A stretch of 64,000 nucleotides of DNA from Blasia pusilla (GCA_050084515.1 CM114271.1:1736001-1800000), one strand, 5' to 3'. Shown: positions 2,560-42,423, counted from the first letter of the stretch. The notes: generated by a model not told the origin, from the sequence alone. Numbers and translations: made by a program.

Positions 2560-5500
2560 TGTAATTGACCATGAGAAAATAATGACGTAGATAATTAAAT
2601 TCTTACATTTTTTAAAGTTTGATCTTTAGACTTATTTATAGTCATGGCAAAAGCAATACGAACAGGAAATTGAAATTTACGTAAATCAAAAGGTAAATTC
2701 GAGTCCGATGCAATCAGTCGGATACGTGGGATAAACATTCGATCTTCAGTGTTCCTCCCAGTTATGATTTCGGCATCAATGACATGTTGCATGAATCCAC
2801 AAATCACCAATCGGGTTCCATTGGCTTGTCCCTTTGAACCGTTCAAGTTTCATACGAGCATGAAAGGTGAACCGATTTTCAAACATAGACGATGTGGTGG
2901 TAAACTAGACGATAAGCACGTATTTAAAAAATCTATGGGATAGAAATGACTCATTCCTTCTTCCGGAATGGAATCAACACTAAGGAAAGTACCTTCCTTC
3001 ATAGAACAAACATAACTTAGAAGATGATTTAAACTTCAAGGCATAATACATTTAAAGAACCCATGAAGAAATTCTTATTTAAAGTATTGGAAAACCAATA
3101 TTATCTCTCCATAAAATGAAGATATAACCTCGAAATTGATGTCATCAATGTCTAGATTTTTTGTGTAATAATTGTTGTATCTATCAAAACGTTAATATCA
3201 CGAAACTTTTCAGAATCATTTCCATAGATGATGTCAATAAGATCACTTGTTTTCTTACTCTTGGTCATCATATCATTTGGTAATTGTATAAAATCATCTC
3301 CCAAGTGAGCTTGCAAAGGTACACGACCCTCTCCCACCTCCAATAACCAATCTGCAAACGCTTGTTGTTGTTGTCACATCTTATTTCGACGTAGGGAGAG
3401 TTCTATCGTGTCGACGGCATAGAGAGTCAACGGACTATTTGGGTGTAACTTCGTCCCGAGATGTCGAATAAGGTTGGCAACAGGTCTATTGTGTCGGGAA
3501 CATTGTTTATGGCCATTTCCCTATTTTTTGTTTTAGTACGTCAAGTGACCCGTTGACCGAGTCAACGATCACTCGGTAACCTGCACACGTAGGTTACCGT
3601 TGGTAGGGATATTTTTGGGGGAAGAGCCTTTTGGCTCTTCCCAAGGGTATAAGAGTGAGGAAGATGGCTTTCCCAAGCCATCTTTCTCATGTTGAGCCTT
3701 AGGAGTGCCTCTTTTGCATAGACGTGTGTGGGTATGTAGGAGTTAGGGTGCTAGCGTCCGGATTCCCTCATAGTAGAGGATGGACGTGGTTCGATATATC
3801 AATGTAGATTCATGAGTGGAGTTTTAGGCCGGTTGAGTCATTTTTACTACTCTTGATTTTCTTGTGGGGTCCCTAGTGTATATGCGTGAGTATGTTTCAT
3901 TTATGTGTAGATCTAATCATATGTTGGGGAAGATCGGTGTTGTGTGGTGTGTAGATATGACCAGCGATGTGGATTGTGTAGCGATGTGTATGCGCACGAT
4001 ATTGTACACGTATGTTCACTTCCAAATTTTGAACCCTCATATTTGTTGTAAGCTTCATCACCCTCACATAAGGTCGTAAAAATGACCTCTTTAATGTAGC
4101 TTGAATAACTGTTGGGCGGTCTCTGTGACAAACAATAGGCAAGACTTGTCGAAAATCCCCACCGAAGATGATTAATTTGCCACCAAAAGGAACATTTCTG
4201 AAGTCTTCGGATACTACTTCCATAATATCTTGGAAGGACCAATTAACAGCCTCGAATAAATGGCGATGGGTCATAGATGCTTCATTTCATGTGATAAACC
4301 AAACCCTTTGAATTAAGTATGTAGCTTCGCTATTAGCTGGTAAACTACAAAAAAACACTCAAAGATATTAGTATAATGAGCAAAATATTTCACTCTTTAA
4401 TGGACTTGCAAAATGATGAATTGAGTAGACACTTCCTTGCAAGTAGAGTTTTCATCTACATTGATTGGAATCTTGAAACGTGAATGCGTTGTACGCCCTC
4501 CATCTAACAGCAAAGCAGCTATCCCTGATAAAGCAACAACTAAAGTTATACCTCTAGCACCTCGTACACTTGCAAGAAGAAGAGAGTATAACAAGGTTTT
4601 CCAATTTTGCCACGCCCGTCAATGAAGAACATTTTGGAATTGTGTGTAGTATCTCTCGCAATGATACTATCGAGATTATCATGTAAGGCATTCCAAATCA
4701 ATCGTTGTTCATCATTCAAACTCTCCTCTCCTAACCTATCTCGTTCATATAATGAATCTTGATCATAAAGAAGCTCTTCTACTTCCAAATGCGAATAGGA
4801 AGATGGAGCATAGAAATCAGCTTGGGGCATATTTGGGAAGTCAGATAGTCTCTTTCCTTGATCTTGAAAATAATAGTGGACTTCCAATAGTGCAGTATTA
4901 ACAATCAAAGCAGTGGGGGCAAGATCACGAATCCCTATTTTCTCTATAGATCCCATGATTCATGAAATAAGTCGATTAATAGAGGAAAGAAATAAGATAT
5001 GTGCAAAAGGAAATAAGAATAGGAATTACCTCATGTTGTTCATATAGGATATCATCTAAAATCGGGATAAGAAATTGACTCCATGGTTCAGAAGGTCGAG
5101 CAGGTATGTTATAGGACAAAATAACGACAAATAGTTGACAAAGCGCACGACTAGTGCGGATTTCATAAGCTTTTTGGAAGCATGAGTACACTTCCCTATC
5201 ATCCTTGAGAAGACCCATCTAAATAGCAGCCTCCTTAAAGGTTGGATATAAAACTCCATCCATATTTCTCAAGTACTCATATGTAGTTGCACCTTGAATC
5301 TGATGAAGTAGCAACCACAACCAATGGTGTTCTCCTTCATCTACACAAACATACATGTAAATATATATAATACATAAAGCATTGCAAATAATTTGGAAAA
5401 TGCATGAAAATGAACTCGAAGAGGGTTTAACATTATGCAAATTGCAAATAGATATACCTAGATGTGTTAGATATAAGCGACTAATCGGATGACCACAACC

Positions 5501-5790: not shown

Positions 5791-5835
5791 TATACAAAAT
5801 ACAGAAGAAAAATATGGATAAAGATAGATTAGTAT

Positions 5836-6203
5836 TGTCATGACCATATGGATTATGTCGTAGATTATAGTGTGCTAGTAGAAGTCATACCTTATGTAGG
5901 GTCGTAGTGTCTAGGTAGAAATGCGGTTTCATACATAGGGTTGGGGGTTACTCTGTTGAGGGTGAATTTTCCAGTAGGGCCCGCTCTTAGGTTGGAGGAT
6001 ATAGTGTGGAGTGCACTCAAAGAACAGTTAATTCTTTGAGTTGAGCCTGTTGCATTAGGAATTAGCCTTGGTAGTTAGTAGAGCTCTTGGCTATGGTGGT
6101 TCCCGCAAGCTTCGACCTGGATTCTCCCATCATGGAGTGGGTTTTGCTCGATTATATGTGATTCTATGCGTGTTTTATGACAGTAGGTCTTTCATGGATT
6201 TCA
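5836..6203 (+). repeat. Element 1 repeat A1 (368 bp)
   Basis: Direct repeat of 15156-15523, same length, roughly 6-7% differences by manual count. Confidence 0.92.
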
Positions 6204-7703
6204 CTCAAAGAACTAGAGTAGATCGATGGTAGCTTCGATTGTGGATCAGTAGGATCTGGTTAGGGATGATTGTGTACTCAACCGTGGATGTTCGTGGCTT
6301 GTGGCCTATGTTGGAGTTGGGAATCTGGTGTGTGGTTGATTGGGAAAGAGGCGCCTTGCTGAGAGCTTTCCAACGCGCTTTAGATCGCCAGATTTTGTGA
6401 AGGGAGTTGGAAGTTATCAAGGATTGAAGATTCTGGTTCGTGTTCGACGGTTTTCTGATGTGGAGAGCTTGGAGTGCGGAAGCTCTATTAAAGTTCATCC
6501 AGATTGGGTGAGAGGTTCCTGTTGCTACTTGTATTTTAATCTCATGTGAAGCTATATGCTTGAGTGTGTGGAGCGTTGCGGATTTCTACGCATGCATGAA
6601 TCTGGGCGGAGGCGCTGTCGGATTTGCTGGAGGTGTATGGACAGCAAGTTTGTCTGATTTTTAGCTCAGAGTACACAGCTCAGTTGTAGCTGATTTATGG
6701 TGGAGAGATAGCTATGGTGGTCAATTGAATTATGGTAAAAAAGATTCAATTTTGGTCTAGGATTTGTGGAGTAATTGTTGATCGAAATTTCGCGGACTAG
6801 CTCAAGGTCTGGCTATGGTGGACAGCAGATCAGAGGGGCTGGTTGGTTGGTGACTCGTTCGTTGTTGGAGACGCCTATCCTATTGGGGGCACCCTGGTTG
6901 GGCCTCTCTCCATGGCAAAGCATGGCGAAGCGTGGCGAACGGGGCATGTCTTGGCATTTTGAGGCTTCGAGGCAACTCATGGTAGCTCGGGGCAAGTGGG
7001 CGTGAGAGGCGGAGTAAGGAGCAAGGAGCAAGCAAGCAAGCTTGGGCGTGAGGCAGTTTTTGCACGATTTTTTATTTGAATGTTGCATAACTGGTCATCC
7101 ATCTTTGGGCTATTCTGCTTGGAAGACGCTTAACTGCTGAGTTCTTAACTATGCTAGTGTATACACTAGTGTAGCTCATTTGGTGTTGTTCGGAGATGTG
7201 TTAGACGCTTTATGCATCTGAGGTTTTTGGTTGATGGACCTCTAGCACATAGTACGGTGTAGTCTCTCCATGCAGGTGAGATTTTCAGGTGCTGCGAGTC
7301 CGACTAGCACGTCATCGACCCGCAGCGGAGTAGCTATTGTGTTAGAATTGTGTGGTGGGTTATGTGGATTCAGGGGGCGCCACGTTTGGTGGATTGTGTT
7401 ACCTTGATTTCCATTTGCGATTGGAGGGTTGTCGTTGGACTTCCTATGTTTGGATCCCCTCCATCGTTGCTTCTTGCTTGCACGCCCATTGTTAGGGTTG
7501 ACGCTGATTTCCAAAGTAGTGTTACTCCTGTGTGCTACCGGTAGTGAGGCTGGAGTGATGACCAGTAGACCGTGGGAGGCTGCTTGTGGTGCTGACACGT
7601 TAGGTTGCCTACACCCATAGCTAGTAGAGCTAGAATAGTACAGCGACATCGACGCCACTTGGTTACTTAGTGGTGGTAATTTGGTGGTGGTGCGGCATCA
7701 GCG

Positions 7704-10700
7704 TTGGTCATCACGGAGCTGTCTGGTGGTCTGGTTGGGGAACGTGGTGGTTTCACACGGAGTGGATTGAGGTATCGGCTACCTTTTCCACTTCCGACGA
7801 TTGATGAAGAGGAGGACGAGGTGTTCCAAACACCGAGTCTTCTACGTTGTTATCGAGTGTTGCAGCTCCATTCATTTGGGACATGGACTGGATATATGGG
7901 GCCATGAAGGGCCCACAACGATACTCGAGTGCAGTGGGTACTATTGAGTTGGAGGACTTCATGCAGAAGTTTGATACGTGGTGTGATATGCAGATGCTCC
8001 GTAACGCCACGTTATTTACACCCTCCTTGGCTTGGAAGGGGTTGTTTCAGCACTTGGAGGGACCACTCATGGATGATTACCATGAGTTTAGGAAGGACCA
8101 TGTTGCTGAGATTGAGGCGTGGAGACAATATTGGTCTCCAGACTATGTGTCTATCACCCATGGTGGTATTGGTAGTAGTGCTCCTACTATGCCAGCCAGC
8201 CCGACGTTGAGTGGTACGAGTAAGAGCCGGAGTGGGGGTACCAATGGAGGTACCAATAGGGGTACTAGTGGAGGTACTAGTGCCCCACCATCGTTCAGCC
8301 CGGTTGCAGAGTTCTTCAAGAGGTTGAAGAAGAATTATTAGGGAGTGAAGCGAGAGAAGTTGAGGAGTCTTCAGGAATTTGAGCGAAAGACTGGTGAGAG
8401 TCTTCGTGAGGCATACACTCGTATGCGACGTTTGATTCCAGTTACCTAGGGTGTGACTGAGGCTCAGGAAGTCCAGTTTTGGTATGGGATCTTGGACAGA
8501 GAGTTACGCCGCAGGGTACGTGATGTTACTCTTATGAGTGATGATTCACCCACATTGACCCATGTGCTTGCTCTATCTGAGAAGATTGAGCTTAACATGA
8601 TGAAGGAGAGAGTGGTGACATCCGTATTTAGCAGGGATACAACTACTACTTCTCGTGTTCAGCATCCCACCTTACAATCTCATAGTAGTGGTGGTGGTAG
8701 TAGTAGTGGGAGTCATGGGGGGTACACACGACCTCAGTCAGGTCCTAGAGGGACACTTGCGCAGAGACCATTGCCTTCATTTGCTGCCCCGCAGCAAGGA
8801 CAATCATGTTGGACACGTGGAGGTGATCATGTTAGGAGGTTTTGTCCCCAAGAGGATGGGAGACGGACTTTGGAGGATGGGCCTCAGTCGGCCCCAACTC
8901 AGTGGTATCATTGCGGGAGACCAGGTCATCCTCGAGAGCGTTGCTTTGATCTTCATCCAGAGTTGAGATCAGGCTGCGCCCGCGGTGGAGTAGCTCCGAG
9001 AGGCCGAGGTGGTAGAGGTGGTAGGGGTGGTAGAGGTGGACCAGTGGTTGGAGAGCCTACGGTGGCTACCCCAACCACTACGACAGAGTCAGCTATGGGT
9101 GCCAGGATTGAGCAGTTGGAGCAAAAGTTGGCTACTATGGCTGGTATCCAGCATAGATCAGGTTCGGGAGCAGGGGCTTCCACCTCTTATGGAGGGGATG
9201 ATCTCTCTTATATGGCAAGAGCAGCACAAGTTGAGGCATCAACTGCAATTACGAGAGGAGCCACTCAAGCGTCAAAGCCACGTGGTGCTACCCTAGAGTT
9301 TGACCCACATAGGGGTGAGGCTGGGAGGCAGGCTAGGCTTCCCAAGTCATTCTTGTTGTCTGAGGTGCTTAGGACTCCATCCATGGTTCCTACGCAGCCT
9401 ACTAAGCCGACAGTGGGGACTGAGGCATCTACATCGCGTGTAGTAGACACAGATGCAACATCCAGTGCAGTATTGCGGATGGCAACTTCAGTGTTGGGAT
9501 CCCCATTGTTTTTGGCCACGAAGCTGATGGCTTTAGGAGTTGACTTAGCTCATGTATTTTAGCTAGCAGCCACGTTGTGTGAGCGTGGGGGTGTTACTGC
9601 TACACTTGCTGAGGTGGATGAGGGTGTTGCGGTGGAGCGACCCTCTATGTCAATTGTAGCATTGAGTACCAATGCTACTTGGTAGGCAGCAACGGCGAAG
9701 ATGGATGCATTACCAGCCCGGCCAGCCATTGATCGTGTGAGGCTTACACCTAGTATATGTATGTTGGACAACCGGAGTGGGATATTCCGATTGGTGAGTC
9801 CTACAGGGCAGGTGTATAGACCAAATAGAGTCTTGTTAGACTCTGGTGCCCAACCTTTGATGTTGGGAAAGGCGGCATGGATTGGTTTGGGTATTCAGAG
9901 GTCAGAGCTTGAGCCTTGCCCATTCCAGATTCAAACATCACTTAGAGGATCCAATGATAGGTCTCAATTCATGACACAGGATAAGTTCTCTGTACAGTTG
10001 AGACTAGATCATGCGACAGATAGCTCCCGGTTGGGAGTACCTGCAGTGGTCACATTAGCTGAGTCGTATGATGTACTAGTTGGAGGAGCAGTATTGTACC
10101 CCGATGGGTTTTCACATGGATTACTGGACTGAGACACCGTCTTATAGACCGGGTTGGCAGTCCGGAGATGGACGTATAAGCCAAGATCCTGTGAGATTTA
10201 TTTATGGGGCTCGACCAGGAGGGTCTTCCCCAACGGTGTTAGCATCTGTGGCTGGTTTTAGTGGAGTAGTCACTTGGCCATGAGACTTTTTGGAGGGTAA
10301 TGTTTCTGCTATGGATTCTCCTGTGCATGAGGAGGTAGAGGAGGTCCCTAGTTTTGCAGCAGTGGCATTCTCATCGTTGGATGTGCCACTTTGGAGTTCA
10401 GGCGGTGCACTACGGCAGGAGGCTGATCGCCTAGTGCATAAGGCTTGGTGTGAGGCTCTTATACCTCATGAGGAAGAGGAGGCCCCACGGCAGACTCTTA
10501 CTTCTGGTCCAATTGGGTTATCCCATTTGGATACTAAACCCATTGTATGGCAGTATCCGCCGGAGGGCATTTGTGTGTTAGATCTCTTTGGTGGGATTAG
10601 CACTGGTTTGGCTACAGTGTTGCAGACCGGTATTCCTGTGCGGAGATACGTGTATGTGGAGCAAGATGAGACGGCCTAGAGAGTCTCATCCAGATATATC

Positions 10701-13700
10701 GGTCAGTTGATGCGGAGATATCCTGAGTTGTTACCGCCATCAACTATTCGTGGGTACCAGCGTGCTTTGCCGTCACATATTGCATTGTTGGGGGCGCAAG
10801 ACCTTGAGAGGGTTGGTCCTGTGGATTTGGTGATTTCTGGATGGCCATGTCAGGATCATACACGTGCTGGTCGTGGTGAGGGATTACACGACCCTAGGTC
10901 TCAATTTTTTGGGAGATGTTACGGGTGTTACGACATCTTCCGGTTCATCAGGCACGTGCTCCAACTTACATTCTGGAGAATGTTCCATTGTTGGGTGACA
11001 CTCGGACCCAGATGATGGCGAGTGTTCATGAGGTGTGGTCTTGGATTGGATCAGCGGTGTTGTTGGATGCAACGCAAGTTGGCTCATGTGCACATCGTCC
11101 ACGCTTGTGGTGGACAAACTTGTTGCCTAGGGAGGTTCTACATCGAGCATATGATGCAGTGTAGCGGAATCCTTGCCTTACAGTGGGTAGTATCTTGGAT
11201 AGTGGGCGACTTTCTCAAGTGGTGAGGGTTATTGATCGGTCACCCATGGCAATGGTGAACCGTGTGGGCCAGCCTAGGATGGCACTACCCACATTTGTGA
11301 GTTTTCCCTCGTCACATGGCTATAGGGAAGGTGGTCCCGGGCTTGTATGGGATTCTCATGTGCGACAGTTGGTGGAGCCTAACGCTGATGAGAGAGAGCG
11401 TGCGATGGGATTTTCTACTGGTGTGACAACGGTTGCTTCCATTTCTGAGGCTTCACGACGTCATGTGTTGGGTCAGGTCATGGACCTGAATTGTTTGACT
11501 TGGATTTTGAGTCTTGGTATGGCCGAGCAGCGTCAGCTTCGGACTATGTCTGTGGGTCTTCCACCCCTTGTGATGAGTTCGATGGCTACCGAGACGGTCG
11601 AGGCATCGGTTGGGGGCCAGGAGAGTAGTATTTTGCATCCTTGGAGTAAATGGGATGTAATGGCTGGGCATGTGGAGTTGGTTGCTCATGCTGGTGGAGG
11701 AGTTATTTGCTCAGATAATGGTGTAGCTAAGGGTATACCATCTTGTGAGGGGGTTGCGTTGCAGCCAATGGCATCGTCCTCTCCCTCTAGTGTGTCAATG
11801 GAGGAGACTTGGGAGCCATTACTTGGGCCCAAGCTTACGGGAGGTGAGAAACGACGCTTGACACAGTTCCTACGTGCTTATAGGAGTTGTTTTTCCTTTA
11901 GCATGAAGGAGTTGGATGCTTTGGTTGGACCCAGTATACGGATTGATTTGGCTAGTGATACGCCAATCTTCCGTCGTCCCTACCGATATAGTGATATGGA
12001 GAGGGACCTGATTCAGAGTAGGACGTTGGACCTTTTGGAGGCTGGATTAGTGGAGTTGTCGCATGGAGAGTATGCATCAACGATTGTCATGCCTGCTAAA
12101 AAGGATATGCATGGCAACTACACGGATAGGCGGATGTGTGGAGATTATAGTCCTACCAATCGGCAAACCAAGGCCAATAGGTATGCCATGCCTACACCTG
12201 TGGTGGGACAGGCAAAGATTTTCAGTATTTTGGATCTTCGGCCAGGATACCATCAATTACCGATTCGGGAGAGTGACAAGGCCAAGACAATATTTTGAGG
12301 TGTCAACTCTCATGGCAAGGATTTTTTGTACCAATGGAAATTCTTACCCTTTGAGTTGAAGAATGCACCTGCCGAGTTTCAGAGAGTGATGGACAGGACC
12401 CTAGCAGGGTTGGATTTTGTTCGGTGTTACATTGATGATATCTTGGTGTTCAGTAATACGGTGGAGGAGCATCAGATACATTTGCGGATTGTGTTTGAGC
12501 GGTTGAAAGCTCATGGTCTACGTTTGCATCCAGGACAGTGTAAGTTCTTTCATGAGGATGTTGAGTACTTGGGTCATGTGATCTATCCATGTGGTTTGGG
12601 AGTTCAGCAAGCAAAGGTGGAGGCTATTGCACTTATTTCGTGTCCGGTAGATGTGAGTAGAGTTCGGGCATTCATGAGATTGGTGAACTACTATCGGAGG
12701 TATGTGAAGGGATTTAGTGCTATAGCAAAACCTTTGAACCAATTGCTGAAATCAGATCAAGAGTGGCACTAGGGAGATGATCAGGAGAGAGCTTTTGTGG
12801 AGCTCAAGGCCTAGTTGGTGGCGACGCCTATCTTGAGGAGACCTATAAGAGGGCGCCCATTTTAGTTACACACTGATTGGAGTAGGCTGGGACTTGGAGC
12901 GGTGTTGACACAACATGATGATGAGCATATGGAGTGTGTGGTGGCCTATGCAAGTCGTTCGAATAATGCAACGGAGTCGCGCTATACTTCATATGAGGGA
13001 GAGTGCTTGGCAGTAGTGTGGACTGTGGCACACTTTAGGTGTTACTTGTTTGGCACATAGTTTACCCTTGTTATTGATCACCATCCGCTCAAGTGGTTGA
13101 TGGAGTCTGACAAGCTTACAGGGAAGCTTGCACGGTGGGCTCTTATCTTACATGAGTATGACTTCCAGGTGGTACATAGACCTGGAGTTGCCAACCTTGA
13201 TGCTGATGGGTTGAGTAGGAACCCATGTACTAGCCAAGAGGATGCAATTGGGGCTATATGGCATGGCGAGGTTGATGAGGAGATGGTGCCAAGTTGGCAT
13301 GCATCCGCCTTTTTATGTTGGTTAGGGATGGACTCTAGTATGGAGGACCACATGACTTCTTACTCTAGTTAGAGGGTAGATGGCCAGCCTTCACATCCTA
13401 AGGTTGGAGATGGTGGTACGGATCAGCATGATATTCATGATGATGCGTTGGTGTTGGAGTTCCTACAAACCAGTAGGGTGCCAGGCATAGTGAGTGCCAA
13501 GGAGCGAGACCGTGTTCTTCAACGTGCTAAGAGGTATCGATTGGAGGAAACACATATTCTCCGTGTGTGGGAGGATAGTAGAGGACAAGTAGTGCCGCAT
13601 TTGGCTCAGAATGAGCGTATTGTGCGACATGCCCATGAGGAGTTGGGACATTTTGGGGTAAAGCGTACATATAGCTTACTCCTTGGTCAGTATTGGTGGC

Positions 13701-14872
13701 GTGGCATGCATACTCAGGTGCAGCAGTTGGTGTCACGTTGTATGGTTTGTGTCCGGGTGAGGGCATCATTCAATGCCCCTACACCACAGTTACATCCCTT
13801 GCCTATTATGGGGTTGGGTTACCGTTGGAGTGTGGACTTTGCAGGACTATTACCGTTGACTGTACGACATGATCGATATGTGTTGGTGATGGTGGAGCAC
13901 TTCTCCAAGTGGATTTAGTTGGTGGCATTACCTGACAAGGCAAGTGAGGGAACGTCGTATGTGTTTCTTGATAGAGTGCTAAGTCATTTTGGTGCACCAG
14001 CTGAAGTGCTGACCGACCCGCGTACAGAGTTTTAGGGTGAGTTTTAGGTCTTGTGTGACAAGGCGTTGATTGATCATCGGACCACGTCTTGAGATCATCC
14101 AGAGGCGGATGGTTTGGTTGAGAGTGTGGTTCAGACGGTAAAGAGGGCATTGCGCAAGTATGGCCTACAGAAGGGACATCTTGGAGACTGGGATATTGAG
14201 TTGCCATGGTTAGCCATGGGGTATAGGTTAAGTCGCCAAGCATCCTTGGCTTCCTTCTCGCCTTATTTTCTGTTATACGGCCAAGATCCAGACTTGCTAG
14301 CAACAATTCTTCAGGAGTCTAATGAGGTGGTGAACCTTGATGACCCATAGATGTGGATGAGAATGTGTTCTCAGCGGGCATAGCTCTTTCGGAGAGTTGT
14401 GCCAATAGCCTTTGAGAACCTTGCCATTGCTCAACACAGGGATACGTTGAGGTATGCAACCATTCGGGGTGGAGGTTATCGACCATCGATTCATAGGTTC
14501 CATGTGGGGGACTATGTCTATTTGCAGCAGATTGCACTGACAACGTTGGATGTGACGGCATGCCGCACTATTTTACGAGTGCGCGAGGTGTTAGCTTCTG
14601 AAGTTCTCATGTTGGAGGGTCGTGATGGAGTTGTTTGGAAGGACCATGTGCGTAATCGTGCGCCATATCATCTTCCAAATGTGGATGGTACTGTTGAAGC
14701 CAGCTTAGCCATGATACGTGCTAGCTTGAGGTGCATGTTGTGTGGGTCTGCTGGTAACGCAACCCGTATGTTGGTGTGTGATCAGTGTTCTAGGGGTTGG
14801 CACATGATGTGTTTGACTCCACTTATGGATGTTGTTCCTACTGGAAGGTGGGTTTTTCCTCGATGTACTTAG
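7704..14872 (+). pseudogene. Element 1 polyprotein Gag-PR-DNMT-RT-RNaseH-IN-PHD (stops and frameshifts)
   Basis: Degenerate zinc knuckles and an RGG tract; protease VLLDSGAQ; RT RRMCGDY, NAPAEFQR, YIDD; RNase H HTDWS..GLGAVL..YASRS; IN HEELGH..CMVC, DFAG, ADGLVE; C-terminal PHD. Confidence 0.92.
10569..11525 (+). pseudogene. Element 1 C5 cytosine DNA methyltransferase domain (DNMT3-like)
   Basis: Motif I VLDLFGGISTG, II YVYVE, IV DLVISGWPCQ, VI YILENV, VIII AHRPRLWWTNL, IX ERERAMGF, X RRHVLGQVMD, in canonical order. Confidence 0.9.
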
Positions 14873-15049
14873 GAGAGGTAGATGACTTGATCTTTGCATG
14901 ATATGGATTTCAGATAGACGACTAATGATGGGGCAACCTAGCACATGGCCTTCTGATTTGTGCACCCAAGAAGGTGTATAGCATGTAGTAGATGTATAGG
15001 GCTACCCGAGAGTTAGAGGGACCTAACCGCCAGTGAGGGGGGGGCGAGT

Positions 15050-15629
15050 TGTGGTACACTTGTGTTTGTGCATGCTCTCATCTATGTTATGTATGTATGT
15101 GAGTATGGTATGTCATCGATGTATGTTGTATGACGATGTGGATTCGCACGACAGTTGTCATGACCACAGGAATTATATCGTAGAGTATAATGTGCTAGTA
15201 GAAGCCATACCTTATGTAGGGCTGTAGTGTCTAGGTAGAGATGCGGTTTCATACATAGGGTTGGGGGTTACTCCGTTGAGGGTGACTTTTCCAGTAGGGC
15301 CCGCTCTTAGGTTGGAGGATATAGTGTGGAGTGCACTCAAAGAACAGTTAGTTCTTTGAGTTGAGCCTGTTGCGTTGGGAGTTAGCCTTGGCAGTGAGTA
15401 GAGCTCTTGGCTATGGTGGTTCCCGCAAGCTTCGACCTGGATTCTCCCATCGTGGTGTGGGTTTTGCTCGATTGTATGTGATTCTATACGTGTTTTATGA
15501 CAGTAGGCCTTTCACGGATTTCAATTGTGGTACACTTGTGTTTGTGGATGCTCTCGTCTATGTTATGTATGTATGTGAGTATGGTATATCAACAATATAT
15601 ATTGTATGACGATGTGGATTCGCACGACA
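15050..15629 (+). repeat. Element 1 3' block B1-A2-B2
   Basis: B1 15050-15153 and B2 15526-15629 are both 104 bp. The B1/A2 junction is GACA-GT-TGTC. Confidence 0.92.
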
Positions 15630-15702
15630 GTATAGAATAGATTGTTTTATGAGGTCCCAAAATATTGAAGTGATAAAAAAAGAAACGAAATAAAGAATTC
15701 TT

Positions 15703-15940
15703 ACCTTGCATCGAGATAATGTGAGGTTGCATCAACAACATCCATTGTCATGGACGTAGTTGCATCATTTGACACCTTAAATGAGATGGCATGTGATTCC
15801 TTATATACATATTTATATAAGTATTTCAGAGCATAAATGATATTAGTGATTTCCAAATTGACATGACAATCAAAGAGAGTAAATAATAAAGGATTATAAG
15901 GAACAACCCAAAAATTATCCAAAGCTTGATCGCGCTTCAT
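15703..15940 (-). pseudogene. Helitron Rep exon upstream of the retroelement insertion
   Basis: DNFWVVPYNP..FDCHVNLE...KYLYKYVYK...YLDAR followed by a GTAAG donor. It joins YISSSQACWR near 5790 to give the canonical YLDARYIS..ACWR. Confidence 0.8.
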
Positions 15941-18930
15941 TATCTTTATATATATATATATTTAATATAAAGAAGAGGAATAAAACATTAAGATTTTTCC
16001 TTAAAAATATGTATAAATCATTGCAAGATAAAAAAAATTATACATGGGCATAGATTGCATACCTTCGATAAGTTGTGTCGTAGTATGTGATTGGAAATAT
16101 TCATTGGGAATCTTAAAAGTATGAGTTGTGCACCCGTTGTTGATAAAATTATCATCTTGCCAAACTATTGAAGTACTTTTGGAAAGAACATTGCGTCTTC
16201 CATCCTCGAGAAGAATAAAATCATTCTCAATAATTTTTGTTGCAGTATGTAATTGGAAATCATCATTGGGAATCTCAGAAGTATTATCATGAGTCATACG
16301 CCTGAGAAAAGAGAGTGGAAATTGTAAATTTTTAACTAAGTCAATGACAAAAGAAATTCATGAAATGATAAGTATAGTGAAAGATTACATTCCTTGCAAT
16401 AGTATTTAAAGTGTTCATTGGAATATCCTCCATCATAGTTGGTAGAGCATCACAAATGGATTGAACAATTGAGGTAGAAGAATCATGTCTTCCTTGTAGG
16501 GCTTTCCTTTTTTTGTTATGCTTAAGTCTCGGCACAAATAAGTCGTTTTCATTTTTGTGCCTCCCCGCGTAACACCTTCCGGAAATCATGTATAGAAATG
16601 GGATTTGATGGAATAAGAATTTTGCAAAGAATGTTGCAAAGATAAAAAGTTATTATCAAAAAATATCAATGGAATTGAGTATGCATACCAAAGATGAGTG
16701 GGGAGATGAGATGTATGTGCCATAGGCAAAACTTACGTTGGTGATGATTCATTGAGTTTCGGAGGTAGTTTTTTTTTTCAATTTGCCAACTTTTGAGCGA
16801 GTAAAGCTCGATTTCATTTTTGTCCCTCTATGCGGAGTACCTTTCGAAAATCAAATAAATTTGTTGGATTTTCTAGAAGAGGAAGTCTGGGAAAAAAAAC
16901 CATAGGAGAATTGCATAATAATAAACCCTAAACCCTAAAAAAAAACCATGCAAAAATTACATAACAATAAAAAAACCATTTGAATAAATGTTGAGAAACA
17001 CACAAAATATATCACTTGTAATGTGTTTCGTACTCGTGCATGGCACGGATACCTTGCATACGTCGGAGAGATTTTATTGATTTGGGTATGAAGTATTTCA
17101 ACATATCTTTGTGTAGGCGGTAAATTGGTGATGTCGCGTAGTGTTGAATTCTCCATCATGCTAATATTCATGTACACTTATCTGCTCAATACGTAAGCAT
17201 CAAACGTTAGGAAGTATAAGAGAATCAAAAAACATATGTACGGATTAAAGTAAAGTTTTTAATTAGTATCAAAAAATGATATGTGTGTACTAACTATTTG
17301 GGAATAAATTAGTAGAAAGAGTTTGGAATATCGACAGCCCATAAACAATTGAGGCAAACCCAATTTTATTCCCCAATGATTTTTAAATTTTATTGCTAAA
17401 ATTTGGAAATCATTAATTGATAAAATTGGAAAACAAGTAAGGGATCAATTAGGGGGATAATGGAAAAAAAGTTTAATTTTATAATATATGGGGGAATAAT
17501 AATGAGGAAAATGCATGAGGATATATTAAGTGCGAAATTTATTTTTTAGAAAATATGGAAATAAGGTGGAGGGAAGGGGGTCGTGCAAAACAAAGTCAAC
17601 CGTCGGATATTTTCAATTGCGACAGCTAGATCTAGGGATTTTGAATCAGACGGCCTACCCATAAAATCTAGATGAAGTCGTCTGATCTTCACCAAGATTT
17701 TCACCGCATACTACGCATGCAACTTTGAGCCTGGAGAATGGGAATGGGCGGGAGAAGCCCGCCAGAATTCATTTCTGTCTCCTCACCTCGCCTCAAGTGC
17801 GCTTCCCCTCGCGCGCTCGCCCCCAAGCATGCATATCCCCTCGCGCTCATCCCCTTGCACAATTGCGTTTAGTGTGGTCGCCCCTCGCGCCTTTCGTTGC
17901 CTGCGCTCGCCCCTCGCTCCAAGCGCCCTCGCTGGAGCCACACTTGCTGTTGTTGTTGTCGTGTGCCTTGACCTGATTTTTTGCACTGCATTGGCCCTTC
18001 AATGTGCTCCCACCTCCATCTTTGGCGCCCTGCAGAAGCTCCTATTTTCTTTGGCAATCGCTCTCGGCCGCATTGCCCATAGTTGGGATTTGCTAAGTGT
18101 TTACTCCCGTCTGACCTGAGCACGCCCGCCTTACCTTGAGCTCAATTTTTTCGATGCCTCATAGCCTTGCCCTTGATCGTAGTCCGCCTTCACTATGAAT
18201 TTCCTTTCCTTGTTGTCTCAACTTTTTTATATTCATGTTCACATTCTTGTACATGTTATAATCTCATTTTGGCCCTGAGCGCTCCCGCTCAACTATCCGT
18301 TTAGCTATTGCTTTGATTTTGTTTATCATTAGTGCATAGGGGAAGAGCCTTTACTTTGCAGAAAGCAAGCTACAAGGAAGGGGAGATCGAAATGGTTGGG
18401 ATCATATTGATTCTCTAATACTCTTGTTTTTCATAGAGATAGGGCTCACCACTTGGTGTATATTATCTTCTTCTCCTTTGGGTTCTCAATCAAAATCCAA
18501 GTTTGATTTCTTTGAATAACGTCCAACCCTCAAGGCACTCTCAAAGTTCCGAATATGACTAACTTTCCCGGAGGTGCCACAATGTTCTACTGAATGCGAC
18601 AAAAGCTTAGATGCTTGGCAATAGACTCTCCCAATGTGTCAAAACCCTAATTTCAAAATGGACTACTTAGGCGGTGATTAAGATCAACGGCTACAAATAA
18701 GCTTTCTCCATAACGGTATTAATAGTTAAAACTGCTCCATTCCCGCAACTCAAGGAATATAAACATAAGAGTAGAAACATATGGTGTGGAAATTTCAAGT
18801 ATACACGTTGTATTTTTAAGGGACGCCCAAGAGTACACATGCAACATGCCAGTGCATGGGTTGATTTCATAAGCCACGCGTTACTCAACGGAGGCTTCCT
18901 CTAACCCAATCCTCCTATAATAGTATAGAT

Positions 18931-24996: not shown

Positions 24997-27965
24997 TAAA
25001 TAAAATAGAGAGAAACAAATCCACTATTGCCTTTCCGATCCGGACATCGTCGTACTTTGTCCGAGAACCCGATCAAAATTAGGGTTCGTTGAACTTCCTT
25101 ACCCTTACTGGCGAAAAACCCCGGTACGACTCGGCTTTTAACATTCCCGATCTGGACTTCCAAGATATTTCCCGTGTAAAGGTGACAGAACAGCCGACTT
25201 CCCATTAAAAAGTAAAAATGAAAAATAACTGTCCGAACCCCACGGGATGCCGCGATGACGACGGGCATAGCCGCATAGTCTCCTGGACAGGTGAGTGAGT
25301 AGTTACATATTTCCGAAGGGTAACCCATGTCCGGGGAGAACCGGCTCAACCGGGATTAAGTGTTGACCTAGTCGGCAGCATGTTTTAATTACCGATTCAG
25401 TTTCACCGGCCAAAAACCGACGGCCTATGCCAGCTCTCCTCCGTTGTATTCGTATCAGAATAGTAGACCGGCATCAGAAAACTTGCAAGGACCGGGAATG
25501 CACCGGTTCTCTCGAGAAACCTGACTCCCTGAGGATAACCCCTGCACACATGCGCACTCATTGCCGTCGGGAGTCGGGAGCCGGGAGTTCAATAAAAGAC
25601 TCGGGACTCACGGGAAAAGACGGGAATTCGGAAATGATGATTCCTTTCCACCGAGCGATCTTGATCTTGACGGCAGTTGAGGGAGTTCCATGGCGCGCCG
25701 TCTGCTGTACTGTCATCATATATGTCCTTATGTGGAAGTCAATCGAGCAGGTACAGGAGAATACATGTGGACCCGTACAACTCACGCGGATCGAGTTGAA
25801 TTTTCCGACAGTTGTGCCGTTCGATGTGGACAGTAGTAGACTAGTAGTAGTTCGCATGCATCTCGACAAAGCACCTGTTTTTTCCCCCTTTCTTTTGCCA
25901 GAGGAGAATTCAGGGGGTTCTCACCATATCGCCCGATGATATCGATCGGGGGCCTCAGAGCGCCTCTTGCGTCAAGTTTGCCACCTGTCCTTTCCGATTT
26001 CCCCGGGAATTTGAAATGATGGAAACCGAGGAGTGAGCGCGAAGTTGCGAACTAATTTGACGCGTTAATCTCGGATTAATGGATATCGTCACTGTTTTAT
26101 GGATGAAATGCAAATGAGGTCTCGAACAGTGCCATATTTTACGTTTGTATTTTGTATGTAAATACAAATTTTATACTATCATATTGTACACGGGTACATA
26201 TTATTCTCTTAACTTAGTTTGGTTGAGGCTTAATTTATTATTTTTCTTCTTCTTTAATTCCGTATAATGATGCATGTCAGCTGGAGATAAGTTTCAAAAC
26301 ACACGTCCATATTCTAATGGGCGACCTATAAATATAATAAAACATAATAGTACGTATAATAAGACATACTAGTGGGTTAATGAGACAAAAGAATCACAGT
26401 TTAAATTTCGTTTCTGGAATCAAATTAGATGAATAGAGAAAATGAATTTGAATGGGGAGAAGAAATTTTAATTAAATAAGAAATATTTTTATTAATTTTT
26501 ATTATATTGCGTGATATTAAAATATAATAAATTAAGATCATTAAAAAATATTTTTTTAAAATTCATATTTTATGGGAAAAGAAATTTTAATGGAAAAGGA
26601 GTAAATGTTATTTAAATTTGATTGAAGGATAGAATCGATTAGGAGATTGGGATATCATTTAAACTTTAATTAAGGATTGGAATTACTTAGAGAGGAAAGT
26701 ATAAACTTTAATAGAAACATTGGATTGGAATTACTTAGAAGGGTGGAATGTTATTTTTCTTCTAAAATTTATGAAAATAAAATTAGATGTAAATATTTAA
26801 ATGAAAAATTTATTATTCTTAAAAATAACCATGTTAATTCAAATTTGACATTTGGAAAAGGAAAATGAATTTGAATGGAAAAGGGAAGTGATTTCATTAT
26901 TTAAAATTAACTAAGAATTTAATTAGTGAATGTTATTATGGTAGGAAGAGTGGAAGGGGAAGGATAGATATTGTTAAAAATTTTATGGAGGAGTGAAATT
27001 ATTTTGGGGAATTGGGTGTTACTTAAAAGTATAATTTTACTACTCTTTTAAATTTTAAAAATTGTAAATATACTTAAATGTTAAATTTAAAATATTTCTA
27101 AATTATTAAAAAATAATTTTCGTGCACAAGCATAGGCATGCTAACAAGTATCAACTACAAGAGGATGGTTTTGTAAATCCATCTAATCTATTAATTAATT
27201 GGAGGATGTAATTTTATTTTCAGTTGATACTGGTTAGGACCCGTGAGGGAACTTGCGATGCACGAATCCTTGTAATTCAATGTCTTTATACATATGATCC
27301 TTTATACGTATTGTGTATATGTCAGGCGTCGGAAATTCCCAAGTTCCAAAAAACGCTTGTTGAATTCTGAAGTTTTCGCCATTCTAGAGCGCTCCTCAAA
27401 GAAAAATATAAACGTGGCAATATTTCCTCAAAAATATGTTTGGTTGCATTAATTGGGTTCATATAATGAGATTGGTAAGGAGAGTTGTCACATCTGAGTA
27501 GCCGATAGGCCGAGATCTATCGTGGATAGGGCGTAGGAGCCAGCGGACTATCTTGAGTGTAACTTTGTCCCACAGTGTCGGATGAGGTTGAGGATAGGTC
27601 CATTGTGTCAGGAACGTCGTTTCTGACGACTTCCATGTTGAGGTCTTTTACAGCCGGGTGACTTGTTGACCAGGTCACCTGCCCCTGGTAACCTGTGCAC
27701 ACAGGTTACCAAGGGAAGGGCTATTTTTAGGAGAAGAGCCTTTTGGCTCTTCCCAACCTATATAAGAGAGGAAGATGGCTTTCTTAAGCCATCTTTCTCA
27801 TGTTGGGCCGTTGGAGCACCTCCCTTGTAAGTGTGTGAGCTAGGACTAGGGTGCTAGCGTCCGGATTCCTTGATAGCACAGGGTGGACGAGGCTCGATAT
27901 GCTGATGTAGATTGAGGAGTGGAGTTTTAGGTAGGGTGTGCCGTTTTTACTACTCTTTATTTTTT

Positions 27966-27979
27966 ACATGAGAAAGATG
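27966..27979 (+). promoter_or_regulatory. Self-priming primer-binding site of element 2 (equivalents at 6203-6215, 37849-37863, 54541-54554)
   Basis: ACATGAGAAAGATG lies immediately after A1 and is the exact reverse complement of CATCTTTCTCATGT (27790-27803), about 30 nt downstream of TATATAA (27759). Confidence 0.75.
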
Positions 27980-28904
27980 TCAAGGGGCTGATGGGAATTC
28001 GCTGTTTGCAGGTAGGCAAGCGAGTTGCCTCGGTTGGGGAGCCCCCGAGACGCGTGTGTGTGCCATTTTGTGTCATTTTTCTGTTCAGAGGCGTGGGGCG
28101 GAAGCGCTGTCCGTTTTTCTCAGATTTTGCTGGTGCAGATTGTTGGGGGACAGCAGTCGAGTGTAGCGTGTGGTGGGGCGTCGGATGTATGCAAGTGAAG
28201 GCGTCGAGAGAGAAGGAACGGGCAGGTTTGGGTCTTGCGGTCCACGGGGGTCAAGTAAAAGGCTAGAGTTAGGTCTCAAATTTAGGGCGGGCGCGGACGG
28301 GCGGCGGCGGTGGCGATTTAGCCGGGGGCGTGGCGGACGGGGCGGGCGCAGCAGAAAGCGCGACGGCGGGCGGACTGGCGTGCGCGTGATGGCGCCCGCC
28401 ACGCGGGAGTGTTATGTGGCGGAGATTGTCATATCATGTGGAGGAGTGCATATTGACGGGCAAAGAAAGTTGAGGGCGTGATCAGGTTGGTTACCCATTC
28501 GAGTCCCTTTTCCCGCACTTGTCGTGGTGTGATTGAGAGTGTTGGATATCGGGTAGTAGCGGTGCTAGATGGGTGCGATGATGGTGACGAGTGTAGATTC
28601 TTTTCATGTGTAGCATGTTGGTGGATATACGGCGGTTGCGAGTAGGGTCGCGTCGCGTGTATGACTCGAGAGTGTGTCGCTAGGTTAGGTGAGTCGGTTG
28701 GGGGAGGCTCATGGTGAGCCCGAGTGTTGAGCGCGCGTGAGGCCGGGTATGTCATCACGGGATTGACGTTAGCATAGGTGAGCTAGTGAGGCGTGTGGGA
28801 GACTCTCGGTGAGTATGAGTGCTTGAGCGGGTGAGACAGGGTTTGTCATCACGGCGTTCTTCCAGGGTTCGGAAGAACGGGGTAGTCTGGCGATGGTAGT
28901 GGTG

Positions 28905-41900: not shown

Positions 41901-42423
41901 GCGAGCCAAGGCGATAGTGACTGATGAAGAGTCCTACGACATCTTGGTTGGTGGAGCAGTGTTATACCCATTGGGGTTTTTCCTGGATTACTGGGAGGAG
42001 TTAGCGTCCTACAGACCAGGATGCCAGTCAGGTGATGGGCGCCTTAGCTCATTACCCGTTTGATTCACAGGTGCAGTGATGGAGCGACGGCCAGGAGATA
42101 TGGCGACCTTAGCAGCATTTAGCAGTGCTATCACTTGGCCTAGTGATTTGATCGAGGGACATGTCCATGCAGAGGATACTCCCATTCCTGACATTTCTAT
42201 GCAGAGGAATGTCATGGTAGCCCCATCAGTCCGTGGAGGAGAGGTGCCGCTTTGGGGCTCGACTAAGGAGCTTTGACGCTTAACCACTAAGCATGTGCAA
42301 ACGGCATGGAGCGAGATGTTTGCACCGGAGTGTGACAGGTCAGAGGAACCCCAAGTAGGCAGGAGTGCTGCTATGACCCCTTTGGACACCACCCCGATTG
42401 TGTGGTGCATCCCAGAGAAGGGT

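What the first reader, a model, noticed from the sequence alone, without database searches (positions are those of the whole stretch)
10569..11525. DNMT3-like cytosine methyltransferase embedded in the retrotransposon polyprotein between protease and RT
Seen: a complete, non-permuted C5-MTase motif series (LDLFGGISTG, GWPCQ, ENV, AHRPRLWWTNL, ERAMGF, RRxVLG) at the same position in elements 1-4 (10569, 31748, 42424, 58054), with fragments in the relic. In element 1 the MTase C-terminus runs into RT in one frame (ORF 11183-12298). The catalytic PC is retained in all four copies. Known: the motifs resemble DNMT3 (VLSLFDGIATG, AHRARYFWGNL, ERVFGFP) rather than permuted DRM. DNMT-bearing retrotransposons have been reported in dinoflagellates and charophyte algae; I do not know them as a characterised feature of land-plant elements. 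Inference: retention across diverged families implies selection, for example methylating the cDNA or circle inside the particle, or marking new insertions.
Basis: partly seen in the sequence, partly recalled or inferred. Interest (0 to 1): 0.88.

Follow-up and report, generated by a model that had tools for sequence, protein, structure and literature searches.

The report
DNMT3-type methylase inside bryophyte-like Gypsy retrotransposons
Four decayed copies of a plant jumping gene each carry their own DNA-methylating enzyme domain of the DNMT3 type, which places a kind of element so far described in a charophyte alga among relatives found in liverworts and mosses.

Summary
All four LTR-type elements carry the full, non-permuted C5-methyltransferase motif series at the stated places, between protease and reverse transcriptase. 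Pfam DNA_methylase scores 39.7-42.3 bits (cut-off 22) in 3 of 4 copies. The nearest solved structures are DNMT3A/B/C by sequence and by fold.

None of the four copies is intact; each has stops and frame shifts. Between the diverged families the domain shows dN/dS 0.17-0.28, against about 0.8 for the two sister copies, and its catalytic residues are kept across a large family.

Named relatives with the same protease-methylase-RT order come from Marchantia, Calypogeia and Closterium; Sphagnum and Riccia supply further methylase relatives whose domain order was not read. Chlorophyte relatives (Haematococcus, Monoraphidium) carry the domain between RNase H and integrase instead.

All four elements have A-coding-B-A-B split repeats, TG..CA ends, perfect 4-bp target duplications and a PHD finger after the integrase. 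This repeat layout is what de Mendoza et al. 2018 describe for KnitGypsy-Dnmt3 of Klebsormidium.

Verdict: a new, probably land-plant member of the known Gypsy-DNMT3 kind. What the methylase does (I favour methylation of the element's own cDNA) is inferred, not shown.

The parts
5836..15629 (+). Element e1, complete insertion: A1 5836-6203, coding region, B1 15049-15154, A2 15155-15523, B2 15525-15629; TSD GTAT at 5832-5835 and 15630-15633
   Evidence: A1/A2 93.5% identical; B1/B2 93.4% over 106 bases; TGTCA...CGACA ends and matching 4-bp flanks
10551..11533 (+). e1 DNMT3-type C5-methyltransferase domain (pseudogene). Motifs: I 10584-10604, IV 10839-10850, VI 10976-10987, VIII 11093-11104, IX 11390-11413, X 11468-11485. 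Stops at 10677 and 11162, a further stop at 10895 where the two frame pieces overlap, frame change near 10880-10960
   Evidence: 74-76% identical to the intact homologue P0002
7883..10132 (+). e1 gag (about 7883-9560) and aspartic protease region (about 9686-10132, LDSGA at 9836-9850)
   Evidence: tblastn to Marchantia protein P0125 residues 1-728, 62% identity; motif scan
11810..13564 (+). e1 reverse transcriptase and RNase H
   Evidence: tblastn to P0129 residues 696-1190, 68% identity; Pfam RVT_1 72.8 bits on 12299-12769
13415..14866 (+). e1 integrase (H2C2 zinc domain about 13613-13765, core) and C-terminal PHD finger (14732-14866)
   Evidence: Pfam Integrase_H2C2 59.2 bits, PHD 34.7 bits; tblastn to P0151 residues 1390-1875, 42% identity
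27486..36795 (+). Element e2: A1 27486-27965, B1 36038-36175, A2 36172-36657, B2 36658-36795; TSD GAGT. Methylase pseudogene at 31730-32644
   Evidence: Pfam PF00145 40.6 bits
37333..47679 (+). Element e3: A1 37333-37847, B1 46905-47028, A2 47037-47549, B2 47552-47679; TSD AGCC. Methylase pseudogene at 42412-43388
   Evidence: Pfam PF00145 39.7 bits
54062..63222 (+). Element e4 (same family as e2, 93% nucleotide identity): A1 54062-54540, B1 62460-62597, A2 62608-63084, B2 63085-63222; TSD ATAT. Methylase pseudogene at 58036-59021
   Evidence: Pfam PF00145 42.3 bits
48492..50395 (-). Relic of a fifth element: methylase fragments 48492-49018, protease-region fragment 50009-50395
   Evidence: tblastn to P0125, P0129 and P0002, 31-39% identity
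3370..4002 (+). Isolated A+B repeat remnant related to the e2/e4 family (about 75% identity)
   Evidence: self-blastn

Best explanation
The feature is the C5 cytosine DNA methyltransferase domain of the DNMT3 type. It is a regular part of the Pol polyprotein (gag - protease - METHYLASE - RT - RNase H - integrase - PHD finger) of a Ty3/gypsy lineage with A-coding-B-A-B split direct repeats. This is the kind described as Gypsy-DNMT3 (KnitGypsy-Dnmt3) in the charophyte Klebsormidium. The window holds four separate integrase-made insertions from three diverged families, plus a relic. All are now pseudogenes, decayed mainly by point substitutions. Shown: identity of the domain, its place in Pol, four independent insertions, conservation of catalytic residues across the family, non-synonymous change well below synonymous change between families, and sense-strand RNA of sister copies in runs that carry the same species label. 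Inferred: in working copies the domain is made as part of Pol beside RT, binds SAM and methylates cytosines of the element's own newly made cDNA before or at integration. The PHD finger on the integrase would steer integration to a particular chromatin state. A new copy would then arrive already marked like resident methylated DNA. I put about 0.45 on cDNA self-methylation as the function and about 0.85-0.9 on the identity and membership statement.
For: Pfam PF00145 above the cut-off in 3 of 4 copies. DNMT3A/B/C are the best solved relatives by sequence and by fold, in colinear motif order. All six motifs are present in 3 of 4 copies; in e2 motif X is broken by a frame shift. Four perfect 4-bp TSDs with different flanks show four independent insertions. 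Between-family dN/dS of the methylase is 0.165-0.275, against 0.78 for the sister copies e2 and e4. In a 27-protein alignment (33-76% identical to P0002), G55, G137, E183, N184, H222, R225, W228, N230, E321, E323, G327 and D352 are invariant and the catalytic Cys is kept in 26 of 27. The same protease-methylase-RT order occurs in named proteins of Marchantia polymorpha, Calypogeia fissa and Closterium sp., and in uninterrupted polyproteins such as P0236 (2188 aa). In the methylase tree the 4 window copies sit in an 8-row clade (SH-aLRT 100) with Marchantia P0128. All 22 rows of the streptophyte-type group form one clade (SH-aLRT 99). The A-coding-B-A-B repeats are what de Mendoza et al. 2018 state for KnitGypsy-Dnmt3 (Fig. 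4c legend, read; arrangement spelled out). RNA-seq raw reads of three runs cover all 30 bins of the e1 coding region with a strong strand bias. Nearly all are 95-99% alike, so they come from sister copies, and they do not carry two of this copy's stops.
Against: No copy here can make the enzyme. Of 80 related metagenome loci, none has a + strand ORF over 508 aa and only 2 have a stop-free full methylase, so the bryophyte-type branch may be largely extinct. e2 and e4 share stops at the same codons in the methylase, RT and integrase. This could mean that a dead master was copied in trans, or parallel hits at hot spots. dS between families is saturated (1.5-1.8 or undefined), so the dN/dS values are rough. 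The methylase tree is unrooted, a quick search only, and lacks host DNMT3, DRM and Klebsormidium sequences. One long-branch protein with the methylase upstream of RT (P0280) falls outside the clade. Catalytic activity, substrate (DNA or RNA, sequence context) and timing were not tested. The PWWP and ADD domains of cellular DNMT3 are absent.
Confidence: 0.85

Rival explanations
1. The methylase is a functionless passenger: a captured host DNMT3 fragment carried along, not needed for transposition and decaying.
For: All 4 copies are broken. 78 of 80 related loci lack a stop-free full domain. e2 and e4 share two methylase stops, as if an element with a dead methylase had still been copied. 10 of 27 family members have GWECQ instead of GWPCQ in motif IV.
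Against: The stops are spread over gag, RT and integrase alike, so the decay is general and not specific to the methylase. Between-family dN/dS is 0.165-0.275, as for gag. Catalytic and SAM-binding residues stay invariant down to 33% identity, and in two different positions within Pol. 235 of 398 collected proteins have a full-length domain.
Confidence: 0.1
2. The domain works, but not on the element's cDNA. It methylates host chromatin in trans (for example around the insertion site), or RNA, or it serves as a non-catalytic nucleic-acid binder.
For: de Mendoza et al. 2018 raise RNA methylation and effects on insertion-site chromatin as options (Discussion). The PHD finger on the integrase suggests contact with chromatin. 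The weak DNMT2 match shows only the common fold.
Against: The sequence is far closer to the DNA enzymes DNMT3A/B/C (E 1e-26) than to the tRNA enzyme DNMT2 (4e-3). The catalytic Cys, ENV and RxR motifs are kept, which argues against a purely structural role. No data here tell cis from trans action.
Confidence: 0.25
3. Bryophyte elements took their methylase from a bryophyte host DNMT3 on their own, so this is not the same lineage as the Klebsormidium or chlorophyte elements.
For: The methylase sits at two different places in Pol: protease-MT-RT here, and RT-RNase H-MT-integrase in 118 of 235 proteins with a full domain. The tree has no root and no host sequences. de Mendoza et al. speak of recurrent acquisition.
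Against: Window copies, Marchantia and the charophyte Closterium fall in one clade (SH-aLRT 99). The integrase-PHD part of e1 is 42% identical to that of chlorophyte-type P0151 over 490 alignment columns, so backbone and methylase are both shared. The A-coding-B-A-B repeats are shared with the printed description of KnitGypsy-Dnmt3.
Confidence: 0.1
4. Artefact: a host DNMT3 gene disrupted by transposon insertions, or an assembly chimera.
For: None beyond the broken frames.
Against: The same domain order appears in four elements with different TSDs and flanks, in a fifth relic, in 80 metagenome loci and in annotated proteins of several species. The methylase and RT share one open frame in e1.
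Confidence: 0.01

Closest known systems
KnitGypsy-Dnmt3 of Klebsormidium nitens (de Mendoza et al. 2018, Nat Commun 9:1341, PMC5890265; sections 9 and 11 read in full, further passages by search)
   Same: A non-permuted DNMT3-type domain inside the Pol ORF of a Gypsy LTR element. The repeat layout is that of DIRS elements (A-coding-B-A-B) although the domains are those of Gypsy. There is purifying selection on the domain (paper: Ka/Ks < 0.2; here 0.165-0.275 between families). The host is a streptophyte.
   Different: The nearest named relatives here are bryophytes, that is land plants, not a charophyte. The copies here are all dead. The passages I could read do not give the place of the domain in Pol or mention a PHD finger ('PHD' occurs 0 times in the main text), and the figures and supplements were not available. 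So identity of architecture, and direct sequence kinship with the Klebsormidium elements, were not tested.
Chlorophyte and environmental Gypsy polyproteins with RT - RNase H - methylase - integrase - PHD (e.g. P0151; Haematococcus lacustris P0341, P0343; Monoraphidium neglectum P0327)
   Same: Homologous methylase (36-40% identity to the window type). Homologous RT and integrase (about 42%). The same C-terminal PHD finger.
   Different: The methylase lies between RNase H and integrase, not between protease and RT. I found no paper that describes these elements.
Cellular DNMT3A/3B/3C (animals) and plant DNMT3 / DRM
   Same: Catalytic fold and motif order. DNMT3A/B/C are the best sequence and structure matches. 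The variable region between motifs VIII and IX is short.
   Different: There is no PWWP or ADD domain next to the catalytic domain. The domain is made as part of a retroelement polyprotein. About 21-22% identity to human DNMT3A in the structural alignment. DRM is permuted; this domain is not.
SymbioDIRS-Dnmt3 of dinoflagellates and the adenine-methylase domain of DIRS/PAT elements
   Same: A retroelement Pol that carries a DNA methyltransferase, with A-coding-B-A-B split repeats.
   Different: Those elements integrate with a tyrosine recombinase. The elements here have a DDE integrase with an H2C2 zinc domain, TG..CA ends and 4-bp TSDs. The DIRS methylase is of the adenine type.

Membership tests
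C5 cytosine DNA methyltransferase (Pfam PF00145) | Profile match above the curated cut-off | tested here: met
   e2 40.6, e4 42.3 and e3 39.7 bits against a cut-off of 22. The e1 pieces score 17.9 and 12.9 because a frame shift splits the domain.
C5 cytosine DNA methyltransferase (Pfam PF00145) | Motifs I (FxGxG), IV (PC), VI (ENV), VIII (RxR), IX and X in canonical order | tested here: met
   All six motifs are present in e1, e3 and e4. In e2 motif VIII reads HRPH and motif X is frame-shifted.
C5 cytosine DNA methyltransferase (Pfam PF00145) | Open reading frame able to give an active enzyme | tested here: not met
   The guide alignment shows in-frame stops in the methylase region of all four copies: e1 3, e2 8, e3 5, e4 4. 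e1, e3 and e4 change frame once; some of e2's stops lie in out-of-frame stretches. These copies are pseudogenes of a member.
C5 cytosine DNA methyltransferase (Pfam PF00145) | Transfer of a methyl group to cytosine C5 | not testable with these tools
   Needs an enzyme assay or expression with a bisulfite or EM-seq readout.
DNMT3 subfamily | Closest to DNMT3 among solved methyltransferases, by sequence and by fold | tested here: met
   Profile E-values: DNMT3A 1.3e-26, 3B 5e-25, 3C 2e-24, DRM 1e-12 to 3e-9, HhaI 5e-8, DNMT2 4e-3; DNMT1 is not listed at E 0.01 or better. All Foldseek ranks shown, 1 to 49, are DNMT3A/B/C.
DNMT3 subfamily | Non-permuted motif order (unlike DRM) | tested here: met
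   Colinear alignment to DNMT3A in three blocks, I, IV-VIII and IX-X.
DNMT3 subfamily | N-terminal PWWP and ADD reader domains | tested here: not met
   Pfam finds none beside the domain in the window pieces or in 6 homologous polyproteins. A PHD finger lies far away, after the integrase.
DNMT3 subfamily | Placement inside the DNMT3 clade in a rooted tree with DNMT1, CMT, DRM, DNMT5 and bacterial outgroups | not tested
   No named host or reference sequences could be obtained. The tree holds retroelement domains only.
Gypsy-DNMT3 retrotransposons (KnitGypsy-Dnmt3 type) | DNMT3-type domain within Pol of an element with Gypsy domains (protease, RT, RNase H, DDE integrase) | tested here: met
Gypsy-DNMT3 retrotransposons (KnitGypsy-Dnmt3 type) | A-coding-B-A-B repeat layout | tested here: met
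   4 of 4 window elements and the loci L056 and L073. The printed description was read.
Gypsy-DNMT3 retrotransposons (KnitGypsy-Dnmt3 type) | Purifying selection on the methylase domain | tested here: inconclusive
   0.165-0.275 in 5 between-family pairs, but dS is saturated and post-insertion decay is included. The same-family pair gives 0.78.
Gypsy-DNMT3 retrotransposons (KnitGypsy-Dnmt3 type) | Sequence kinship with the Klebsormidium elements themselves | not tested
   No Klebsormidium protein appeared. The nearest named charophyte is Closterium sp. NIES-68 (P0294).
Ty3/gypsy LTR retrotransposon | Integrase-type insertion: TG..CA termini and a short target-site duplication | tested here: met
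   5'-TGTCA (TATCA in e3) ... CGACA-3' and perfect 4-bp TSDs in 4 of 4 elements.
Ty3/gypsy LTR retrotransposon | Two identical terminal LTRs as the only long repeats | tested here: not met
   A second repeat B flanks the 3' copy of A and has no copy next to the 5' A.

The most novel reading that the evidence does not exclude
A very old lineage of Gypsy elements, present across the green lineage, carries its own epigenetic kit: a DNMT3-type writer in Pol and a PHD reader on the integrase. It replicates with DIRS-like split repeats yet integrates with a DDE integrase. It moved the methylase once within Pol (RNase H-MT-integrase in chlorophytes, protease-MT-RT in streptophytes), it survived into land plants, and it is still transcribed there. 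In this reading the element pre-methylates its own cDNA and inserts into chromatin with unmodified H3 tails, so a new copy arrives already silenced and costs the host little.
Probability: 0.3. Interest if true: 0.75.

Novelty: new member of a known kind. Interest (0 to 1): 0.5.

Why it matters
DNA methylation is the host's main weapon against transposons, so a transposon that carries its own de novo methylase is a paradox, and its function is still open. Finding the same kind of element close to model bryophytes, with annotated but unnamed gene models in Marchantia polymorpha, and seeing sense transcripts of sister copies, would put the question in organisms with genetics, methylomes and transformation. 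The two alternative positions of the domain, the PHD finger on the integrase and the split repeats joined to integrase-type ends give concrete handles on how the element uses chromatin.

Tried and rejected
1. The whole-genome search of the window's own genome was not possible: none is held.

2. My one search of protein representatives used alignment A1, which held four long polyproteins. The profile therefore had 1002 positions and the best 150 hits were ranked largely by RT and integrase, not by the methylase alone. It gave a survey of architectures but no host DNMT3 or DRM sequences, so I built no rooted tree.

3. The ESM Atlas look-up only repeated 'C5 methylase'.

4. The sequencing-run search listed no holder on record as RNA, and organism names were coded. 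I then laid three RNA raw-read runs with the same species label and one DNA run.

5. The search for intact copies found none: 0 of 80 related metagenome loci has a + strand ORF over 508 aa, and 2 of 80 have a stop-free full methylase.

6. A host gene broken by insertions, or an assembly chimera, is rejected.

7. A DRM-type or bacterial origin is rejected on the E-value ranking and the motif order.

8. The same-family dN/dS values (e2 vs e4) are inflated in absolute pN and pS, because tblastn-guided codons include out-of-frame stretches. I use only the ratio, and with caution.

Supplementary Figs 13-14 of de Mendoza 2018 and the supplement of PMC12344493 may list bryophyte or chlorophyte elements that I could not see.

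Full report
OBSERVATION. The window holds four long elements on the + strand that stand out by G+C content and a strong G>C skew. Self-comparison gives long direct repeats (A1/A2) at these places:
- e1: 5835-6203 and 15155-15523, 93.5% identical.
- e2: 27480-27965 and 36172-36657, 96.1%.
- e3: 37335-37847 and 47037-47549, 90.1%.
- e4: 54064-54540 and 62608-63084, 96.7%.

e2 and e4 are 93% identical to each other. e1 and e3 are 66-74% identical to the others, so three families are present.

Three-frame translation and a motif scan show the C5-methyltransferase motif series in canonical order in every element. tblastn with an intact homologue places the domain at 10551-11533, 31730-32644, 42412-43388 and 58036-59021.

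Pfam DNA_methylase scores 40.6, 42.3 and 39.7 bits for e2, e4 and e3, against a cut-off of 22. The two e1 pieces reach only 17.9 and 12.9 bits because a frame shift cuts the domain. This is far beyond chance.

No copy is intact. The guide alignment shows in-frame stops in the methylase region of all four (e1 3, e2 8, e3 5, e4 4). e1, e3 and e4 change frame once; some of e2's stops lie in out-of-frame stretches. Stops are equally frequent in gag, RT and integrase. A fifth, minus-strand relic keeps methylase and protease fragments (48492-50395).

WHAT THE DOMAIN IS. Against all solved structures, the e3 read-through (stops as X) matches DNMT3A at E 1.8e-11, DNMT3B at 4e-9, DRM2 at 7e-4 and M.HhaI at 7e-3. 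A profile of 27 family members sharpens the ranking:
- DNMT3A 1.3e-26, DNMT3B 5e-25, DNMT3C 2e-24.
- DRM 1e-12 to 3e-9.
- M.HhaI 5e-8, DNMT2 4e-3.

The alignment to DNMT3A is colinear in three blocks (motif I; IV-VIII; IX-X), so the domain is not permuted as DRM is.

An AlphaFold model of the intact homologue P0002 (74-76% identical to e1) has mean pLDDT 87.3. All of its Foldseek matches shown (ranks 1 to 49) are DNMT3A/3B/3C, with E down to 4.8e-19, TM about 0.8 on the target and 20-23% identity. The PWWP and ADD domains of cellular DNMT3 are absent.

ANATOMY OF THE ELEMENTS. In e1 the order is as follows:
- gag, about 7883-9560.
- Protease, with LDSGA at 9836-9850.
- Methylase, 10551-11533.
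- RT and RNase H, 11810-13564.
- Integrase, with its H2C2 zinc domain.
- PHD finger, 14732-14866.

The methylase C-terminus and the start of RT lie in one open frame (11165-12298).

Each element has a second repeat B on both sides of the 3' copy of A and none next to the 5' copy. In e1, B1 is 15049-15154 and B2 is 15525-15629. The layout is therefore A1-coding-B1-A2-B2.

The inserted unit begins 5'-TGTCA (TATCA in e3) and ends CGACA-3'. It is flanked by a perfect 4-bp duplication in 4 of 4 elements: GTAT, GAGT, AGCC and ATAT. These are four independent integrase-type insertions. The internal B1|A2 junction reads GACA-GT-TGTCA, which is the two termini joined with two bases between them. Two related metagenome loci that contain both ends (L056, L073) show the same layout.

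RELATIVES. Word-indexed protein searches found 187 near-length relatives and 34 longer ones. All the named ones are bryophytes:
- Marchantia polymorpha: many 'hypothetical proteins' of 960-1333 aa. P0129 carries methylase, RT and RNase H by Pfam and a protease by similarity.
- M. paleacea, Riccia sorocarpa and Calypogeia fissa.
- Sphagnum troendelagicum and S. fallax.

More distant polyproteins of 1885-1978 aa carry the methylase between RNase H and integrase, followed by a PHD finger. A third search named some of these as Haematococcus lacustris and Monoraphidium neglectum.

Of 398 proteins collected, 235 have a full-length methylase. Of those, 118 read RT-RNase H-MT-integrase-PHD, and 22 have the methylase after the protease or before RT.

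In a quick maximum-likelihood tree of 76 methylase domains, the four window copies fall in an 8-row clade (SH-aLRT 100) with Marchantia P0128. All 22 rows of the protease-MT / MT-RT group form one clade (SH-aLRT 99). The exception is the long-branch protein P0280. One member of this clade is from the charophyte Closterium sp. NIES-68. The tree is unrooted and contains no host DNMT3.

SELECTION AND DECAY. Nei-Gojobori estimates on tblastn-guided codons give the following:
- Methylase, five between-family pairs: dN/dS 0.165-0.275 (pN 0.24-0.33, pS 0.66-0.68).
- gag: 0.16-0.22.
- RT-RNase H: 0.10-0.17.
- Integrase: 0.08-0.18.
- e2 vs e4, the same-family pair: 0.73-0.87 in every domain.

dS is saturated, and post-insertion decay inflates the ratios. 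The result says 'constrained like the rest of the polyprotein', not more than that.

Catalytic and cofactor residues are invariant or nearly so in the 27-protein alignment. The catalytic Cys is kept in 26 of 27, while the Pro before it is Glu in 10 of 27.

Decay is mostly by transitions. 22 of 40 polarised LTR substitutions are C>T or G>A. 38 of 89 stops lie opposite Q, R or W of the guide proteins, which make up 15% of the aligned residues.

Among 80 related metagenome loci, none has a + strand ORF above 508 aa and 2 have a stop-free full methylase. Uninterrupted polyproteins with the window-type order do exist further out in the clade: P0236 (2188 aa), P0154 and P0253.

EXPRESSION. Three RNA-seq raw-read runs carry the same coded species label as the best DNA holder. 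They cover all 30 bins of the e1 coding region, the methylase included. 1401, 1241 and 1490 reads were laid, of which only 2, 7 and 6 are 99% alike or better. The first mate lies almost always on the minus strand, which in the usual stranded libraries means sense RNA. The reads therefore come from sister copies 1-5% away. At two of this copy's stops (one in gag, one in the methylase) they do not carry the stop. A deletion form that lacks about 1 kb of the integrase is also transcribed.

HOW IT LIKELY WORKS. The following is shown:
- A DNMT3-type catalytic domain is a conserved, constrained part of Pol, next to RT.
- The integrase ends in a PHD finger.
- The elements insert by an integrase-type reaction.

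The following is inferred. In working copies the domain methylates the element's own cDNA before or at integration. The PHD finger directs integration to a chromatin state. Its best solved matches are the PHD fingers of KMT2C, DPF2/3, CHD4, ATXR5, KDM5A/B, PHF21A and UHRF1; from memory, most of these read the unmodified H3 tail.

cDNA methylation is the option de Mendoza et al. favour for their DIRS elements. They also list trans effects, RNA methylation and self-restraint (Discussion, read in full). I give cDNA self-methylation about 0.45.

COMPARISON WITH WHAT IS KNOWN. de Mendoza et al. 2018 (sections 9 and 11 read in full, further passages by search) describe KnitGypsy-Dnmt3 of Klebsormidium nitens:
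- A non-permuted Dnmt3 domain in the Pol ORF of a Gypsy element.
- A repeat structure like that of DIRS.
- Ka/Ks below 0.2.

The window's elements meet each of these features. Direct kinship with the Klebsormidium copies could not be tested.

Later texts speak of DNMT3 in retrotransposons 'in streptophytes' (PMC12344493, passages) and of 'streptophytes (Gypsy-DNMT3)' (bioRxiv 10.64898/2026.05.21.726589, passages). The split-repeat terms come from PMC4157794 (passages).

Eight full-text searches found no paper that describes such elements in bryophytes or chlorophytes, their PHD finger, or the two positions of the domain. Supplements were closed and may hold such lists.

VERDICT. This is a new, probably land-plant member of a known kind, seen here only as pseudogenes. 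The side observations extend what I could find in print:
- Two positions of the domain within Pol.
- A PHD finger on the integrase.
- Split repeats combined with TG..CA ends and 4-bp duplications.
- Sense transcripts of sister copies.

They need a rooted tree and bench work before more is claimed.

Noticed in passing
window 5832-15633, 27482-36799, 37329-47683, 54058-63226: All four elements have A1-coding-B1-A2-B2 split direct repeats together with integrase-type ends (TGTCA...CGACA) and perfect 4-bp TSDs. The internal B1|A2 junction equals the two termini joined with 2 bases (GT) between them. How a DDE-integrase element regenerates B2 is unexplained.
   Followed up: partly
window 14732-14866 (e1); CxxC..GWH motif also at 35870-35896 and 62288-62314: There is a PHD finger at the C-terminus of the integrase, where chromoviruses carry a chromodomain. 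It is conserved in chlorophyte relatives. Its best solved matches are PHD fingers of KMT2C, DPF2/3, CHD4, ATXR5, KDM5A/B, PHF21A and UHRF1.
   Followed up: partly
proteins P0149, P0151, P0152, P0341, P0327 and others: A large set of green-algal and environmental Gypsy polyproteins carries the homologous methylase between RNase H and integrase: 118 of 235 proteins with a full-length domain. The streptophyte type has it between protease and RT. The two placements separate in the methylase tree, except for the long-branch protein P0280.
   Followed up: partly
alignment A2, motif IV: 10 of 27 family members have GWECQ instead of GWPCQ. The proline before the catalytic cysteine is replaced by glutamate while the cysteine is kept.
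   Followed up: no
window elements e1-e4 and loci L001-L080: The sense strand is G-rich and C-poor, with T above A (window elements: G 30-33%, C 18-20%). The skew is family-wide: median GC skew is 0.21 in the methylase region of 80 loci. Symmetric deamination of double-stranded DNA does not explain it.
   Followed up: partly
window e1-e4 coding regions: Decay is dominated by transitions. Stops recur at the same codon in different families; one codon between RNase H and integrase is a stop in all four copies (TAG, TGA, TAG, TAA). e2 and e4 share identical stops in the methylase, RT and integrase. Either they inherited them from a dead master copied in trans, or these are parallel hot-spot hits.
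   Followed up: partly
window 13391-14400: RNA reads of three runs (14, 26 and 43 reads) join 13391 to 14400 with 9 other letters between. This is a transcribed family member that lacks about 1 kb of the integrase; the ends are not GT..AG.
   Followed up: no
window 15701-16650, minus strand: ORFs just downstream of e1 look, from memory, like the N-terminal part of a Helitron-type helicase/replicase (motif ...LKYLYKYVYK...). This was not searched.
   Followed up: no
window 3370-4002: An isolated A+B repeat, about 75% identical to the e2/e4 repeats. It may be a solo remnant of another family member.
   Followed up: no
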